A DNA stretch of 64,000 nucleotides from Collinsella sp. (GCA_019414425.1 DXMB01000001.1:20754-84753); one strand, 5' to 3'; positions 29,897 through 34,454 are shown, numbered from the stretch's first letter. Program-made: numbers and translations. The notes: generated by a model not told the origin, from the sequence alone.

Positions 29897-32143
29897 ATGA
29901 CACTCGTATCCAAGACCTTTGAGCTGTACGGCAAGACCTACACCTTTGAGTCCGGCGAGCTTGCCAAGCAGGCCACCGGCGCTTGTCTGGTCAAGCAGGG
30001 CGACACCACGATGCTCGACACCGTGGTCGTCTCCAAGGAGCGCAAGAATTACGACTTCTTTCCGCTGACCGTCGACTTCAACGAGAAGATGTACGCCGCC
30101 GGCCGCATCCCGGGTGGCTACCTTAAGCGCGAGGGCCGTCCCAGCGAGAAGGCCACGCTCACGGCTCGCATGATCGACCGCCCGATCCGCCCGAGCTTCC
30201 CGGATGGCTTCCGCAACGAGGTGCACATCGTCGCTACCTCGCTCGTCGCCGACCAGGTCAACCCCTTCGACGTCATCAACGTCATGGGTGCTTCGCTGGC
30301 CATGACGCTCGGCGGCGTGCCCTTCGAGGGCCCGCTTGCCTGCGTGCGCATCGGCCGCAACGTGGAGACCGGCGAGTTTATCGTCAACCCCACCTATGAG
30401 GAGCGCGAGAACTCCGACCTGGACCTGGAGCTGGGCGGCTCTGCCGACTTTATCTCGATGGTCGAAGCCGGCGCCGAAGAGATCTCCGAGGACGACATGC
30501 TCGCCGCTATGAAGTTTGGCCAGGAGGCCCTCGCTGCCTTCTGCCAGGCCCAAGACGAGTTCGTCGCCGAGTGGGAGCAGGTCAACGGCGCTATCGTCAA
30601 GAAGGAGTACCCGCTCGACCAGCCCGTCGAGGAGGTCCAGGAGCGCATCTTCGCCCACTACGACGAGATGGCCGCTGCCCTGCGCGACGCCGACAAGCTT
30701 TCCCGCATCGGTAAGGTCGAGGCTCTGAAGGAGTCCATCCGCTCCGAGTTCACCGACGAGGAGCAGGCCGCCTGGGAGCGCGAGATCCCCGTGGCGCTCA
30801 AGAAGCTCGAGAAGAAGGCCATGCGCACCATGGTCGTCGAGACCGGCGAGCGCGTCGACGGTCGTGCCGCCGACGAGATTCGTCCCATCATGGTGAAGGA
30901 CAACTACCTGCCGCTCGTTCACGGCTCTGGCCTGTTCCAGCGTGGTCAGACTCAGGTGCTCTCCGTCCTGTCGCTCGGCATGCTTAACGAGGGCCAGCGT
31001 CTGGATACCATCGAGCCCACCGAGGGCAAGCGCTACATGCACCACTACAACTTCCCGCCGTTCTGCACCGGCGAGACCGGCCGCATGGGCAGCCCCAAGC
31101 GCCGCGAGATCGGCCACGGCAACCTGGCCGAGCGCGCCCTGCTTCCGGTGCTCCCCGACGAGAACGAGTTCCCCTACGCCATCCGTGTGGTCTCCGAGGT
31201 CATGGAGTCCAACGGCTCCTCTTCGATGGCCTCGACTTGCGGCTCCACGCTCGCCCTTATGGACGGCGGCGTGCCCATTAAGCGCCCGGTCTCCGGTATC
31301 GCCATGGGCCTGATTCAGGAGGAGGGCAAGACCGTGGTCCTGTCCGACATCCAGGGTCTCGAGGACTTCCTGGGCGACATGGACTTTAAGGTCACCGGTA
31401 CCACCGAGGGCATCACCGCCCTGCAGATGGACAACAAGGCCACCGGTCTTACCTTCGATATCTTGGCCCGCGCCCTGCAGCAGGCCAAGGAGGGTCGCGC
31501 CTTCATCCTGCAAAAGATGCTCGATGTGATCCCCGAGCCGCGTCATACCACGCGCAGCACCGCTCCGCGCATCGTCTCCATCCAGGTTCCGACCGATAAG
31601 ATCCGTGACGTCATCGGTTCCGGCGGCAAGGTCATTCGCGGCATCCAGGACGAAACCGGCGCTTCGGTCGACATCCAGGAGGACGGCACCGTCTTTGTCG
31701 GCGGCACCGGCGAGTCTGTCGATCAGGCCGTCGAGCGCATCAAGCTCATCATCAAGGTTCCCGAGCCGGGCGAGGAGTACACCGGTCGCGTGGTCTCCAT
31801 CCAGCCCTTCGGCGCCTTCGTCAACCTGCTGCCCGGTAAGGACGGCCTGCTGCACATCTCCCGCGTCGCAAAGGGTCGTGTGGAGAAGGTCGAGGATGTC
31901 CTCAACGTGGGCGACGAGGTCAAGGTCGTCGTCATCGAGGTTGACGATCGCGGCAAGATCTCGCTCGATCGTCTGGACAAGCCCGAGGCCCCGGCTCGTG
32001 CCGAGGGTGCCTCCGAGGGCGACGGCGAGCACTTCCAGCGCCGTGAGCGTCCGCGTCGCGAGCGCTCCGAGCGCAGCGACCGTCCGCGCCGTCCCGGCGA
32101 CAACGGAGGCCGCAAGCCCCGCCGTCACCACGACGCCGAGTAA
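29897..32143 (+). CDS. pnp: polyribonucleotide nucleotidyltransferase (PNPase) with Arg-rich C-terminal tail
   Basis: Two RNase PH domains, KH and S1 domains (…GRVVSIQPFGAFVNLLPGKDGLLHIS…), and a tail RRERPRRERSERSDRPRRPGDNGGRKPRRHH. Confidence 0.95.
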   Translation: MTLVSKTFELYGKTYTFESGELAKQATGACLVKQGDTTMLDTVVVSKERKNYDFFPLTVDFNEKMYAAGRIPGGYLKREGRPSEKATLTARMIDRPIRPSFPDGFRNEVHIVATSLVADQVNPFDVINVMGASLAMTLGGVPFEGPLACVRIGRNVETGEFIVNPTYEERENSDLDLELGGSADFISMVEAGAEEISEDDMLAAMKFGQEALAAFCQAQDEFVAEWEQVNGAIVKKEYPLDQPVEEVQERIFAHYDEMAAALRDADKLSRIGKVEALKESIRSEFTDEEQAAWEREIPVALKKLEKKAMRTMVVETGERVDGRAADEIRPIMVKDNYLPLVHGSGLFQRGQTQVLSVLSLGMLNEGQRLDTIEPTEGKRYMHHYNFPPFCTGETGRMGSPKRREIGHGNLAERALLPVLPDENEFPYAIRVVSEVMESNGSSSMASTCGSTLALMDGGVPIKRPVSGIAMGLIQEEGKTVVLSDIQGLEDFLGDMDFKVTGTTEGITALQMDNKATGLTFDILARALQQAKEGRAFILQKMLDVIPEPRHTTRSTAPRIVSIQVPTDKIRDVIGSGGKVIRGIQDETGASVDIQEDGTVFVGGTGESVDQAVERIKLIIKVPEPGEEYTGRVVSIQPFGAFVNLLPGKDGLLHISRVAKGRVEKVEDVLNVGDEVKVVVIEVDDRGKISLDRLDKPEAPARAEGASEGDGEHFQRRERPRRERSERSDRPRRPGDNGGRKPRRHHDAE

Positions 32144-32168
32144 CAGCCGCACATAAGCAGCTCAACAA

Positions 32169-32197
32169 GGGCGACTCCGGACAGGGGTCGCCCTTTT
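32169..32197 (+). terminator. pnp terminator hairpin
   Basis: GGGCGAC (32169-32175) pairs with GTCGCCC (32187-32193), followed by TTTT (32194-32197). The last 2 stem nt and the T-tract are also the start of the foldback element arm. Confidence 0.6.
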
Positions 32198-32336
32198 GCT
32201 TGCGCCCGGGAGGGCCGCATATGAAGTTTCCTGCTCTACAGTCCTGCGCAAGACGGAAAGCACATTAAGTGCTTTCCTTTGCGTGCGGAACTCGCGATAA
32301 ACTTCATATGCGGCCCTCCCGGGCGCAAGCAAAAGG
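32192..32336 (+). repeat. foldback element F1-a: 38-bp perfect inverted arms around a 69-nt asymmetric core
   Basis: Arm 32192-32229 is the exact reverse complement of 32299-32336. The core is CCTGCTCTACAGTCCTGC-[central hairpin GGAAAGCAC ATTAA GTGCTTTCC]-GTGCGGAACTCGCGAT. Confidence 0.85.
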
Positions 32337-32462
32337 ACTGGTTAGTGCCGCTCGCTATTTAGTTAGACAGTCTATTCAGTAGTCAGATTTCAGATCTGTA
32401 GATAGCCGCAGCAGCATCTTCCCAGATAAAACCGACCAAAATAAACCTGTCCCTTTTTGGCA

Positions 32463-32595
32463 GGTTTCCCGTGGGGCGGGCACTGATGAAGTTTATCGCG
32501 AGTTCCGCACGAACAGGAGGCCACTTAATGTGGCCTCCGTCGTGAGCAGGACTGTAGAGCAGGAAACTTCATCAGTGCCCGCCCCACGGGAAACC
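32463..32595 (-). repeat. foldback element F1-b: 32-bp perfect inverted arms around the same 69-nt core in opposite orientation
   Basis: Arm 32463-32494 is the exact reverse complement of 32564-32595. The core at 32495-32563 is the reverse complement of the F1-a core (59/69 identical). All differences are in the central hairpin, and 3 are compensated base pairs. Confidence 0.85.
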
Positions 32596-32783: not shown

Positions 32784-34454
32784 ATGGCAGCTAAAAAATC
32801 ATCTCCCTTGAAGATCATCCCGCTTGGCGGCCTTGACGGCATCGGCAAGAACATGACGGTCTTCGAGTGCGGCGACGACATGGTGCTCGTCGACGCCGGC
32901 CTCATGTTCCCGGATGACTCCCAGCCTGGTATCGACCTGGTGCTTCCCGACTACACCTATGTTCTGGAGAACGAGGAGAAGCTCCGTGGTATCGTCGTCA
33001 CTCACGGCCACGAGGACCACACCGGATCGCTTCCGTATCTGCTGCAGGACCTCAACAACAAGGTGCCCATCTTCTCGAGCAAGCTGACGCTCGGTTTTAT
33101 CGAGGGCAAGCTCTCCGAGTTCCGCATCCGCGCGCCTAAGTTCCGCGAGGTCAAGGGCGGCAGCCATGTCAACCTCGGCGGCATCTCGCTCGACTTCTTC
33201 TCGATGACGCACTCCATCCCCGGCGCTCTGGGCGTGTTCATCCGCACCAATCAGGGCACCGTTATGCACACCGGCGACTTTAAGCTCGACCAGACGCCCA
33301 TCGACGGCGTCACGCCCGACTACGCCGCTATCAGCCGCTTTGCCAAGCAGGGCATCGACCTGCTGCTTTCCGACTCCACCAATGCCACGGTTCCCGGCTT
33401 TACCAAGTCCGAGGCCGAGGTTGGTCCCAACCTGCTGCACGCCATCAAGAACGCCCCGGGTCGCGTGTTCGTCGCATCGTTCTCGAGCCACATCCATCGT
33501 TTGCAGCAGATCTGCGATGCCGCCCGCAAGTGCGGCCGTAAGGTCGTTGTGACCGGTCGCTCCATGCTCACGAACACCCGCGTGGCGCGCGAGCTCGGTT
33601 ACCTCAACATCGATGACGCTGATATCATCGATGCCTTCGATATTGATAACCTGCCTGACGACAAGATCGTCGTCATGTGCACTGGTTCGCAAGGCGAGCC
33701 GCTGTCGGCCCTGTCCCGCATGGCCAATGGCGAGCACAAGACGCTCTCCATCCACGAGGGCGATACCGTTATCCTCTCGGCAACTCCCGTTCCCGGCAAC
33801 GAGAAGGCCGTCCAGCAGGTCGTCAACAGCCTGGCCAAGCTCGGCTGCGACGTGTGGGATAAGAACCGCGCTCTCGTCCACGTCTCGGGTCACGGTAGCC
33901 AGGAGGAGCTCAAGCTTCTGATGGCCATGGCCAAGCCTACGTACTTTATGCCGGTCCACGGCGAGGCCGTGCATCTGCGCGCCCATGCCCAGCTGGCCCG
34001 CAAGATGGGTCTCAAGGACGATCATATCTTTATCCTCGATAACGGTGACACGCTCGAGATGCGCGGCGGTATCGTCAAGCGCGGTACGCCCGTCGAGTCC
34101 GGCGTCGTCTACGTCGACGGCCTGCGTATCGGCGATACCGACCCCATCGTCCTGCGCGATCGCCAGAAGCTCGCCAACGACGGTATGGTCACGGCCGTTG
34201 CCATCGTCTCCCTCAAACACAAGAAGATCGAGGCCATCGAGTTCTCGGGCCGCGGCGTCTCGTTTGCCATCGACGACCAGTTCTCCGAGGATGCCTCCGC
34301 GTCCATTATGAAGACGATCGAGAAGGGTAAGTTTAGCTTTACCAGCAGCGGTTCCGATGCCATTCGCAAGGCCGTGCGCGATTCGCTCTCTAACTTTATC
34401 TGGAGCCGTACGCGCACCCGTCCGATGATCATCCCGGTCGTCATGGAGGTTTAG
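32784..34454 (+). CDS. rnj: ribonuclease J
   Basis: LKIIPLGGLDGIGKNMTVFE...VTHGHEDHTGSLPYL (beta-lactamase / beta-CASP). The ATG at 32784 follows GAAAGGAA. Confidence 0.9.
   Translation: MAAKKSSPLKIIPLGGLDGIGKNMTVFECGDDMVLVDAGLMFPDDSQPGIDLVLPDYTYVLENEEKLRGIVVTHGHEDHTGSLPYLLQDLNNKVPIFSSKLTLGFIEGKLSEFRIRAPKFREVKGGSHVNLGGISLDFFSMTHSIPGALGVFIRTNQGTVMHTGDFKLDQTPIDGVTPDYAAISRFAKQGIDLLLSDSTNATVPGFTKSEAEVGPNLLHAIKNAPGRVFVASFSSHIHRLQQICDAARKCGRKVVVTGRSMLTNTRVARELGYLNIDDADIIDAFDIDNLPDDKIVVMCTGSQGEPLSALSRMANGEHKTLSIHEGDTVILSATPVPGNEKAVQQVVNSLAKLGCDVWDKNRALVHVSGHGSQEELKLLMAMAKPTYFMPVHGEAVHLRAHAQLARKMGLKDDHIFILDNGDTLEMRGGIVKRGTPVESGVVYVDGLRIGDTDPIVLRDRQKLANDGMVTAVAIVSLKHKKIEAIEFSGRGVSFAIDDQFSEDASASIMKTIEKGKFSFTSSGSDAIRKAVRDSLSNFIWSRTRTRPMIIPVVMEV

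What the first reader, a model, noticed from the sequence alone, without database searches (positions are those of the whole stretch)
32192..32595. Convergent pair of foldback elements with identical asymmetric cores, a covarying central hairpin and unrelated perfect arms, between pnp and rnj
**Element structure.** F1-a (32192-32336) has 38-bp arms that are exact reverse complements of each other. F1-b (32463-32595) has 32-bp arms, also exact. Each encloses a 69-nt core, and the F1-b core is the reverse complement of the F1-a core.

**Conservation pattern.**
- The first 18 nt (CCTGCTCTACAGTCCTGC), the last 16 nt (GTGCGGAACTCGCGAT) and the innermost 9 bp of the arms (ATGAAGTTT / AAACTTCAT) are 100% identical.
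- All 10 differences lie in the central hairpin.
- There, GGAAAGCAC-ATTAA-GTGCTTTCC becomes GGAGGCCAC-ATTAA-GTGGCCTCC. That is three fully compensated base pairs with the loop unchanged.
- The outer 29 and 23 bp of the arms share no sequence, yet each pairs perfectly without any G:T.

**Why it is unusual.** A conserved strand-asymmetric interior, a covarying apical stem and copy-specific perfect outer stems are the opposite of a MITE or REP, where the termini are conserved. The stems are also far longer than a terminator stem.

**Context.** The two copies face each other across a 126-bp AT-rich spacer. The whole 404-bp unit lies between the genes for two major RNA-decay enzymes, in the rnj 5' region. 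If transcribed, 32-38 bp of perfect duplex would be an RNase III substrate. If acting as DNA, the fold resembles folded single-strand recombination substrates in architecture only.
Basis: partly seen in the sequence, partly recalled or inferred. Interest (0 to 1): 0.8.

Follow-up and report, generated by a model that had tools for sequence, protein, structure and literature searches.

The report
Collinsella hairpin repeat with frozen core
The two facing hairpins between pnp and rnj are real; they belong to an apparently undescribed family of about a dozen intergenic palindromic repeats in Collinsella aerofaciens-group genomes, in which a 69-nt off-centre core stays unchanged while the long stems drift at about the neutral rate yet remain paired.

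Summary
It is not special to pnp/rnj. The 18-mer of the core occurs in 120+ contigs, nearly all Collinsella, at 10 or more orthologous intergenic loci next to unrelated housekeeping genes. I estimate roughly 10-15 copies per genome.

Each copy is a 125-160 nt hairpin with 27-44 bp arms. In the sample, the 18-mer and 16-mer barely vary, the ATTAA loop does not vary, and the 9-bp apical stem covaries. In a 25-copy alignment, 29 of 46 pairs change on both sides and G·U intermediates are almost absent.

Arms differ between loci and between alleles at one locus by about as much as fourfold-degenerate sites (roughly 0.2-0.4). The core must therefore be under purifying selection.

More distant Collinsella species lack the whole unit between pnp and rnj. 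No Rfam, phage or literature match was found.

Related genomes also show hybrid alleles, hairpin-mediated deletions, an IS3-family insertion in the core, and an acetyltransferase gene sitting between the pair.

Best reading: a lineage-specific REP/REPIN/ERIC-like palindromic repeat with an inverted conservation pattern, probably recognised as a folded single strand. Its function is unproven.

The parts
29897..32143 (+). pnp (polyribonucleotide nucleotidyltransferase), the upstream flanking gene
   Evidence: 748-aa ORF. It is 100% identical to cluster P0002, which carries the PNPase Pfam domains. The orthologue is annotated as PNPase in NZ_OY725717.1.
32167..32200 (+). pnp terminator-like hairpin (AAGGGCGACTCC-GGACA-GGGGTCGCCCTT) plus TTGC. 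Its 3' tail overlaps the start of the F1-a left arm.
   Evidence: Inverted repeat I6. It is conserved in all aerofaciens-group loci. Sister species have a different plain terminator at this position.
32192..32229 (+). F1-a left arm (G-rich, 38 nt)
   Evidence: 100% complementary to 32299-32336.
32230..32247 (+). F1-a 18-mer CCTGCTCTACAGTCCTGC, nearly invariant in the family
32248..32282 (+). F1-a variable centre: linker GCAAGAC, apical stem GGAAAGCAC / loop ATTAA / GTGCTTTCC, linker TTTGC
   Evidence: The stem covaries (GC<->AU, CG<->GC) and the loop is invariant in 25 representatives.
32283..32298 (+). F1-a 16-mer GTGCGGAACTCGCGAT, nearly invariant in the family
   Evidence: This segment was not used as a search criterion.
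32299..32336 (+). F1-a right arm (C-rich). Its outer 11 nt, AGCAAAAGG(G)C, mirror the pnp terminator tail.
32337..32462 (.). AT-rich spacer between the convergent copies. In roughly a tenth of related genomes (judging by protein-cluster sizes) its central part is replaced by about 0.7 kb carrying a maltose/galactoside O-acetyltransferase-like gene.
   Evidence: The right 48 nt of the spacer is 94% identical to the 3' flank of that gene.
32463..32595 (-). F1-b, a complete element in opposite orientation. Arms are 32463-32494 and 32564-32595. On the + strand the core reads: rc 16-mer 32495-32510, apical hairpin 32516-32538, rc 18-mer 32546-32563.
   Evidence: CM score is 141 bits on the - strand.
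32784..34454 (+). rnj (RNase J, 556 aa), the downstream flanking gene. F1-b ends 189 nt before its start codon.
   Evidence: Orthologue annotation and Pfam domains. Alignment of the start region.

Best explanation
F1-a and F1-b are two members of a lineage-specific family of palindromic intergenic repeats in the Collinsella aerofaciens species complex. The family is the same kind of thing as REP/REPIN, ERIC or Correia elements, but with the conservation pattern turned inside out.

**What is shown.**
- An ancestral hairpin element of about 150 bp came to occupy 10 or more intergenic sites. At pnp-rnj this happened after the split from C. bouchesdurhonensis-like species.
- It has since been inherited vertically at fixed positions and in fixed orientation.
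- The long arms are free to change in sequence and drift at about the neutral rate.
- The mismatch- and bulge-containing mid-section (18-mer / 16-mer) and the ATTAA loop are held constant by purifying selection.

**What is inferred.**
- The arms stay almost perfectly Watson-Crick paired. The most likely reason is that replication template switching between the arms of a quasi-palindrome turns a single mutation into a paired change or reverts it, on top of some selection for the hairpin.
- The conserved, strand-asymmetric mid-section is a recognition surface for a protein that reads the element as a folded single strand (ssDNA or RNA).
- The strand carrying the 18-mer at its 5' end is the likelier folded strand.
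- The host-level effect is of the REP type: it acts on transcript ends, on insulation between adjacent genes, or on local DNA transactions.

The position between two RNA-decay genes is incidental.
For: **Family and distribution.**
- 61 distinct complete elements fall into 18 arm classes at about 10 orthologous loci.
- Only 2 copies occur in the 64-kb window and 2 in 300 kb of a finished genome.
- One 900-kb record gives 12 BLAST places, probably counting both strands of each palindrome.

**Structure.**
- 99.4% of cells are paired. 29 of 46 pairs show double-sided changes: 279 cells against 84 ± 7 in shuffles.
- The slid controls collapse.

**Neutral-rate arms, frozen core.**
- Fourfold-degenerate sites differ by 0.21-0.33 between haplotype lineages.
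- Arms A versus A' differ at 12 of 40 positions, all compensated.
- The 16-mer, which was not used for retrieval, shows only a handful of singleton changes in 108 copies.

**Gain in this lineage.** Species whose PNPase is 86-91% identical have a 210-230 nt pnp-rnj spacer with a plain terminator and no element. Here the spacer is 640 nt.

**DNA-palindrome behaviour.**
- Stems have almost no G·U pairs.
- L126 shows a deletion between the two copies at the apical stem.
- Hybrid alleles with a crossover in the core occur in four assemblies.
- An IS3-family transposase gene (HTH_21 + rve) abuts the core in L143, and foreign DNA starts in the apical loop in L098. REPs are known IS targets (PMC1525189).

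**Strand hint.**
- Arm mismatches are G·T 19 versus A·C 7 events (p = 0.03).
- Two invariant U·G pairs fall in the core on that strand.

**Literature on the mechanism.** Template switching can homogenise inverted-repeat arms and maintain perfect stems (PMC8794818, PMC8604942, PMC7202029, from titles and abstracts).
Against: - No transposase, RAYT or other partner protein was identified. No target-site duplication is visible.
- No clean empty site was found in a close relative. L096 is ambiguous, and the metagenome scan for an F1-a empty site gave only a chance hit.
- Copy number (about 10-15) is far below that of typical REPs.
- The hybrid allele with badly mismatched arms is widespread. So a perfect hairpin is not essential, and correction is not fast once the arms are very different.
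- Orientation relative to neighbouring genes is mixed. This argues against any simple sense-strand RNA role.
- The strand-bias evidence is weak (p = 0.03).
- Invariance of the 18-mer is partly an ascertainment effect, because it was the search key.
- There are no expression or binding data.
Confidence: 0.45

Rival explanations
1. A multi-copy structured non-coding RNA. Each locus is transcribed, the 27-44 bp perfect basal duplex is cut by RNase III, and a conserved hairpin RNA of about 70-100 nt is released that acts in trans or binds a protein.
For: - Strong covariation and an invariant loop and internal loops.
- G·T over A·C bias and U·G pairs on one strand.
- Five of 10 loci lie in sense orientation 10-50 nt after a stop codon, as 3'-UTR-derived RNAs do.
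Against: - Four of 10 loci are antisense to every gene within kilobases.
- No conserved promoter lies outside the element, and the region has no sigma-70-like site.
- G·U pairs are under 1% of stem cells, unlike typical RNA stems.
- A hybrid allele with a broken stem persists.
- There is no Rfam hit.
Confidence: 0.2
2. A double-stranded DNA site. The invariant 18-mer (CCTGC-N8-CCTGC) and 16-mer are binding sites for a sequence-specific protein, such as a nucleoid-associated protein, a topoisomerase as at REP/BIME, a regulator, or a polar barrier. The palindromic arms are historical baggage kept symmetric by arm-to-arm conversion.
For: - The orientation-independent placement fits a DNA site.
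- The core is conserved even in hybrid alleles whose hairpin is spoiled.
- Stems are Watson-Crick only.
- REPs are reported to bind gyrase, Pol I and IHF (PMC1525189).
Against: - It does not explain why the 9-bp apical stem covaries perfectly while its loop is fixed.
- It does not explain why arm pairing is kept at 99% over long times.
- It does not explain the G·T/A·C asymmetry.
- No candidate protein is known.
Confidence: 0.17
3. Ends or recombination sites of a gene-capturing mobile unit. Convergent pairs (18-mers facing outward) delimit a cassette, and solo copies are remnants.
For: - Pairs are always convergent, at three loci.
- At pnp-rnj the pair brackets a low-GC O-acetyltransferase gene of Firmicutes affinity in several genomes, with orthologues down to 88% identity.
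- Sister species lack the pair and the spacer together. The flanks that remain here (pnp stop to terminator, about 49 nt, plus F1-b to rnj, 189 nt) add up to about the sister spacer length of 210-230 nt.
- REP clusters are reported to associate with strain-specific DNA (PMC1525189).
Against: - The outer ends of the unit are the least conserved part.
- No target duplication is visible and no recombinase gene lies nearby. The syntenic annotated stretch shows none.
- Homologues of the acetyltransferase in other organisms have no such elements.
- Most copies are solo.
- Only one pair is seen with cargo.
Confidence: 0.1
4. An invertible switch (inverton). The perfect inverted arms are recombination sites and the 69-bp core flips to change promoter direction.
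For: - Perfect inverted repeats flank a short asymmetric segment.
- The inner 6-9 bp of the arms are conserved.
Against: - Among 113 copies with both flanks, 219 same-locus pairs all share one orientation and none is flipped.
- There is no promoter-like site.
- The arms are not conserved between loci, as an invertase would require.
Confidence: 0.03
5. An assembly artefact or chance palindrome.
For: - Palindromic extensions at contig ends (L035, L057, L083) look like assembler artefacts caused by these repeats.
- So do some chimeric MAG contigs (L015, L039, L040).
Against: The same structures occur in isolate genomes and in a finished RefSeq record with perfect arms. They also show consistent orthologous flanks.
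Confidence: 0.01

Closest known systems
REPINs / REP sequences (RAYT-associated)
   Same: - Extragenic and hairpin-forming in a single strand, with compensatory changes in the stem.
- Vertically persistent at fixed loci.
- Sometimes found in higher-order inverted arrangements.
- Targets for IS insertion.
(PMC3116915; PMC1525189.)
   Different: - In REPINs the two ends are the invariant 16-mers and the middle is variable. Here the ends vary and the middle is invariant.
- There are about 10-15 copies here rather than hundreds.
- No RAYT has been identified.
- The conserved halves here are only imperfectly complementary to each other.
ERIC / Correia (CREE) / RUP-type long palindromic intergenic repeats (own knowledge)
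   Same: - Imperfect palindromes of 100-160 bp in intergenic, often co-transcribed, DNA.
- Either orientation occurs.
- Sequence conservation is higher than that of the surroundings.
- Effects on mRNA stability or processing have been reported for some.
   Different: - Those families have conserved terminal inverted repeats, and Correia and RUP have target duplications.
- Their copy numbers run from tens to hundreds.
- F1 has locus-specific arms and no visible target duplication.
Integron attC sites (own knowledge)
   Same: - Recognised by structure rather than sequence.
- A long imperfect hairpin of 57-141 nt whose unpaired bases mark one strand.
- Variable sequence with maintained pairing, and association with a captured gene.
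   Different: - attC conserves the R''/R' boxes at the base of the hairpin and varies in the middle.
- attC sites lie in direct orientation in arrays next to intI.
- F1 conserves the middle, its pairs are convergent, and no integrase is nearby.
Quasi-palindrome template-switch hotspots
   Same: An imperfect inverted repeat becomes perfect through intramolecular template switching. This gives paired 'compensatory' changes in one step (PMC7202029, PMC8794818, PMC8604942).
   Different: That is a mutational mechanism, not an element family. It explains the perfect arms but not the frozen asymmetric core.

Membership tests
REP / REPIN | Two inverted, highly conserved REP 16-mers at the ends, with a less conserved spacer between them (PMC3116915) | tested here: not met
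   The ends (arms) are locus- and allele-specific, and the centre is invariant.
REP / REPIN | Hairpin in a single strand, with compensatory changes | tested here: met
   99.4% of cells paired; 29 of 46 pairs change on both sides.
REP / REPIN | High copy number (usually more than 100 per genome; PMC2817692 abstract) | tested here: not met
   Two copies in 64 kb, two in 300 kb of a finished record, and about 10-11 loci in all.
REP / REPIN | Cognate RAYT (Y1 transposase) gene in the genome | not tested
   No whole-genome protein census was possible. None is annotated in the syntenic 100 kb.
MITE | Conserved terminal inverted repeats shared by all copies and by a parent IS | tested here: not met
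   Only the innermost 3-17 nt of the arms are shared between some loci, and the outer ends differ. No parent IS was seen in about 1.3 Mb of fetched loci.
MITE | Target-site duplication flanking each copy | tested here: not met
   No direct repeat lies outside the arms at any of 10 loci (inspection).
MITE | Presence/absence polymorphism with a clean empty site | tested here: inconclusive
   The element is absent in sister species, but their flanks are too diverged to align. L096 lacks the element at locus I but keeps 23 nt resembling the left arm, so it could be a deletion or an empty site. No F1-a empty site turned up in the metagenome scan.
Integron attC | Conserved RYYYAAC / GTTRRRY boxes at the base of the hairpin, direct-orientation arrays, and intI nearby | tested here: not met
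   The base of the hairpin is variable and the pairs are convergent. No integrase is annotated in the syntenic region.
Inverton (invertible promoter) | Both orientations of the segment between the inverted repeats occur | tested here: not met
   0 flipped against 219 same-orientation comparisons.
Intrinsic terminator | Short G+C-rich stem followed by a U-tract | tested here: not met
   The scanner finds none at the elements. The arms are followed by A-rich or mixed sequence.
Any Rfam 15 family | Covariance-model score at or above the gathering threshold | tested here: not met
   No hit at gathering threshold in the window. Only sub-threshold miRNA-precursor hits, typical of any long hairpin.

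The most novel reading that the evidence does not exclude
F1 elements are host-retained recognition sites for an unknown hairpin-reading (single-strand-specific) recombinase or nuclease in Coriobacteriia. Convergent pairs mark boundaries where foreign genes, such as the Firmicutes-like O-acetyltransferase between pnp and rnj, are captured or exchanged. This would be a gene-capture or insulation platform unrelated to integrons, with a recognition logic (frozen bulged mid-stem, free arms) not described for any bacterial repeat.
Probability: 0.08. Interest if true: 0.8.

Novelty: new variant of a known kind. Interest (0 to 1): 0.5.

Why it matters
Collinsella aerofaciens is one of the commonest gut Actinomycetota, and its non-coding repertoire is almost unexplored.

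This family shows an unusually clean signature. About 35-50 nt of strand-asymmetric sequence stay fixed at a dozen paralogous loci, across lineages that differ at 20-30% of neutral sites. That sequence is embedded in stems that drift freely yet stay paired.

Such a signature implies a specific partner, either protein or nucleic acid, that nobody has looked for.

The family is also a natural test bed for a current question: are 'compensatory' stem evolution and perfect palindromes produced by selection, or by replication template switching?

On the practical side, the repeats break Collinsella assemblies and create chimeric MAG contigs. Annotators should know this.

Tried and rejected
- **Rfam.** Gathering-threshold and E-value scans gave nothing but sub-threshold miRNA-precursor hits.
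- **Phage and plasmid collections.** There was no phage match. The single 'plasmid' match is a mislabelled 900-kb chromosomal record.
- **Viral contigs.** Two hits, both the ordinary chromosomal locus F.
- **Literature.** No paper in the library links Collinsella with such repeats.
- **Parent element.** L089, L107, L098 and L114 looked like ends of a longer parent. They turned out to be truncated, duplicated or interrupted copies.
- **Small ORF.** A 15-aa ORF (ATG AAG TTT ... TAA) exists in both window copies, but the ATG is absent at most other loci.
- **Promoter or terminator inside the element.** None found.
- **Hypermutation or diversity-generating mechanism for the arms.** Rejected once fourfold-site divergence between the same haplotypes proved comparable to arm divergence.
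- **Inverton.** Rejected.
- **Spacer as a simple deletion remnant of the acetyltransferase gene.** Only its right 48 nt is demonstrably homologous to that gene's 3' flank. The left 75 nt is not.
- **Chimeric MAG contigs.** Those joining arms of different loci (L015, L039, L040, L065, L079, L111, L138) were not used as evidence of rearrangement. Palindromic arms shorter than the assembler's k can create them.

Full report
**1. The observation**

- F1-a spans 32192-32336. Its 38-nt arms are perfectly complementary around a 69-nt core.
- F1-b spans 32463-32595. Its 32-nt arms are perfect (35 nt at 97%) around the reverse complement of that core.
- The two cores differ at 10 positions. Six are three compensated pairs in the 9-bp apical stem. 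Four lie in the short linkers on either side of it.
- The ATTAA loop, the first 18 nt, the last 16 nt and the inner 9 bp of the arms are identical.

Each element folds into one long hairpin, at -107 and -98 kcal/mol with z about -15. Both strands fold about equally well.

The flanking genes are PNPase (29897-32143) and RNase J. RNase J starts at 32784 when the annotated 556-aa orthologue is taken as the guide.

**2. It is a family, and not tied to pnp/rnj**

All but a few were Collinsella, and many hits lay at contig ends, as expected for an assembly-breaking repeat.

Extending pairing outward from each core gave 61 distinct complete elements in 18 arm classes. Their flanks place them at about 10 orthologous loci, with an 11th seen only in chimeric contigs.

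The neighbouring genes are unrelated housekeeping genes:
- an amino-acid binding protein and a tRNA methyltransferase
- PTS EIIABC and HPr-EI
- a histidine phosphatase and rplC
- a TsaD fusion and CstA
- a sulfatase
- MurB and a PcsB-like hydrolase

An HMM and a covariance model built from 25 representatives gave these counts:
- two copies in the 64-kb window
- two copies in 300 kb of a finished C. aerofaciens record
- no copies in 40 kb from sister species

This suggests about 10-15 copies per genome.

There is no Rfam, phage or literature match. The only 'plasmid' hit is a mislabelled chromosomal record.

**3. Anatomy and conservation**

All copies share the same plan:
- a G-rich arm of 27-44 nt
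- the 18-mer CCTGCTCTACAGTCCTGC
- a 6-7 nt linker
- a 9-bp stem with an ATTAA loop
- a 5-nt linker
- the 16-mer GTGCGGAACTCGCGAT
- a C-rich arm

On a 25-sequence alignment, 99.4% of cells are paired. Twenty-nine of 46 pairs change on both sides (279 cells against 84 ± 7 in shuffles). One-sided G·U states are almost absent, and slid controls collapse to about 40% pairing.

The arms are not arbitrary. They keep a loose consensus (CCCGG, G-rich run, AT-rich box, RAAGTTT) and a G-rich/C-rich polarity relative to the core.

The 18-mer and the complement of the 16-mer are themselves a degenerate inverted repeat. The 'core' is therefore the imperfect, bulged middle of one long hairpin. Bulges and mismatches make the two strands different, and these are the parts that never change.

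**4. How fast do the parts evolve?**

At a given locus, different genomes carry discrete alleles. Their arms and apical stems differ strongly, although the flanking genes are 94-98% identical. That first looked like hypervariability.

The haplotypes carrying alleles A and A' are, however, old:
- Fourfold-degenerate sites differ by 0.24 in pnp, 0.21 in rnj and 0.33 in the acetyltransferase gene that lies between the elements in some genomes.
- The arms differ at 12 of 40 positions, or 12 of 29 if the shared outer 11 nt is set aside, and every change is compensated.

So the arms evolve at roughly the neutral rate. The 16-mer was not part of the search key, yet it shows only a few singleton changes in 108 copies. 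In partner copies captured independently of the key, the 18-mer shows one substitution (two genomes) or one small replacement, TA to GGA (three genomes plus one other locus).

Concerted evolution alone would let the family consensus drift between lineages, and it has not drifted. I conclude that the core is under purifying selection. The caveat is that the exact 18-mer was the retrieval criterion.

**5. Why are the arms perfect?**

- Within an allele class there are 0-2 uncompensated mismatches per element. Between classes nearly everything is compensated.
- G·U pairs are rare, and the rate of paired change is close to neutral. That is not what slow two-step compensation under RNA-level selection predicts.
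- It is what arm-to-arm template switching in quasi-palindromes predicts. Published work describes this as able to create and maintain perfect stems and to homogenise inverted-repeat arms (PMC8794818, PMC8604942, PMC7202029). This step is inferred, not shown.
- The outer 11 nt of the F1-a right arm mirror the tail of the pre-existing pnp terminator. That fits outward growth of a palindrome by the same process.
- Against a fast or obligatory correction, one hybrid allele persists unchanged in four assemblies, one of them an NCBI genome. It has the left arm of A', the right arm of A, and a crossover in the apical loop.

**6. Origin and dynamics**

- Species whose PNPase is 86-91% identical (C. 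bouchesdurhonensis and others) have only 210-230 nt between pnp and rnj, with a simple terminator and no element.
- That length is close to what remains here once the 404-bp unit is removed.
- So the unit was gained in the aerofaciens lineage. Their flanks are too diverged to define an empty site.
- The only absence among close relatives, L096 at the tsaD-cstA locus, keeps 23 nt resembling a left arm. It may be a deletion.
- A metagenome scan for an F1-a empty site found nothing relevant.
- No orientation flip was seen in 219 same-locus comparisons.

Other events show the behaviour of hairpin-prone DNA:
- a deletion joining F1-a to F1-b at the 9-nt direct repeat formed by their apical stems (L126)
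- an IS3-family element abutting the 3' base of the apical hairpin of F1-a (L143)
- foreign DNA starting inside the apical loop of another copy (L098)

REPs are documented targets of IS3- and IS110-family elements (PMC1525189).

**7. The convergent pair**

Pairs occur at three loci, always with the 18-mers facing outward.

At pnp-rnj, several genomes carry a low-GC, 206-aa maltose/galactoside O-acetyltransferase-like gene between the two copies. Judged by protein-cluster sizes (805 against 7578 members), this is roughly a tenth of related genomes.
- Its orthologues go down to 88% identity at this same place.
- Its nearest non-Collinsella relatives, about 70-75% identical, carry Firmicutes names such as Anaerococcus.
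- The right 48 nt of the window's spacer is homologous to that gene's 3' flank. The left 75 nt is not.
- Homologues in other organisms lack F1 elements.

Whether the pair delimits a captured cassette or merely sits at a permissive gap between a terminator and a promoter is open.

**8. What it most likely is and does**

Class level, which I hold with fair confidence: this is a lineage-specific palindromic intergenic repeat of the REP/REPIN/ERIC/Correia kind. It was once mobile or duplicative, is now fixed, and shows an inverted conservation pattern. In REPINs the ends are invariant and the middle varies with compensation (PMC3116915). Here the reverse holds.

Mechanism, which is inferred: the invariant, strand-asymmetric, bulged mid-stem plus loop is read by a protein on a folded single strand.

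Weak evidence favours the 18-mer strand: G·T 19 versus A·C 7 arm mismatch events (p = 0.03), and two fixed U·G pairs.

Mixed orientation relative to genes and Watson-Crick-only stems make a simple sense-RNA role less likely than a role at the DNA or ssDNA level, or a role that works in either transcript orientation. I cannot exclude a processed small RNA or a duplex-DNA binding site, and these are listed as rivals.

**9. Verdict**

The finding is real and well described. Its genomic context is incidental. The 'unrelated arms' are neutral-rate homologues. The RNase III idea is untested.

It is a new variant of a known kind of element and, as far as the available libraries show, undescribed. Interest is moderate: a strikingly clean selection signature pointing to an unknown partner, but no demonstrated function.

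Noticed in passing
L061:6730-7440; L137:2403-3170; L140, L141, L142, L143 (equivalent to window 32337-32462): A 206-aa maltose/galactoside O-acetyltransferase-like gene lies between F1-a and F1-b in a minority of Collinsella genomes. It has low GC, and its nearest non-Collinsella relatives (about 70-75% identical) carry Firmicutes names. Its orthologues at this site have diverged to 88% identity.
   Followed up: partly
L143:1-1030 (GCA_902465535.1): An IS3-family element (HTH_21 + rve + rve_2 transposase) is inserted in the F1-a core, at the 3' base of the apical hairpin. This recalls IS1397/ISKpn1 insertions in REP palindromic units.
   Followed up: partly
L098, reverse strand, about 34 nt into the core of the tsaD-side (H) element: A-rich foreign sequence begins directly after the 5' half of the apical stem, replacing the ATTAA loop. 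The contig ends 77 nt later, so the inserted element is unidentified.
   Followed up: no
L126:2860-2990: A deletion allele joins the left half of F1-a to the outer half of F1-b at the shared 9-nt apical stem. The result is a fully symmetric palindrome (18-mer ... hairpin ... rc 18-mer), and the spacer is lost.
   Followed up: partly
L004, L137:2281-2402, L138, L140: A recombinant F1-a allele has the left arm and half-stem of allele A' and the right half-stem and arm of allele A. Its arms therefore do not pair, yet it occurs in four independent assemblies.
   Followed up: partly
L096, tsaD-cstA spacer (compare L084:1990-2140): The cstA-side element is absent. Twenty-three nt resembling a left arm abut the right flank directly. 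This is either a deletion or a true empty site.
   Followed up: partly
L091, L100, L101 (cstA-side copy) and L107:1443-1565: A sub-family carries the variant 18-mer CCTGCTCGGACAGTCCTGC (TA replaced by GGA in the predicted bulge). It was invisible to the exact-match scan, so the family is larger than counted.
   Followed up: no
L035, L057, L083 (contig ends); L015, L039, L040, L065, L079, L111, L138: MAG contigs show palindromic fold-back ends, or join the arms and flanks of different loci through the shared core. These are probably assembly artefacts caused by the repeat, and a caution for Collinsella MAGs.
   Followed up: partly
PLSDB record NZ_OY725717.1 (L130-L135): A 900-kb record labelled 'plasmid 6' of C. 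aerofaciens TSDC17.2-1.1 carries core chromosomal genes (recA, ftsK, rny, rho, ribosomal proteins, the aro and pyr operons). It looks like chromosome sequence filed as a plasmid.
   Followed up: no
L084:2140-2290 (spacer of the tsaD-cstA pair): The spacer of the second convergent pair contains a terminator-like hairpin (TGCGGAGCAAAGCTCCGCA followed by a T-rich run). It may be the remnant of a former transcription unit between the two copies.
   Followed up: no
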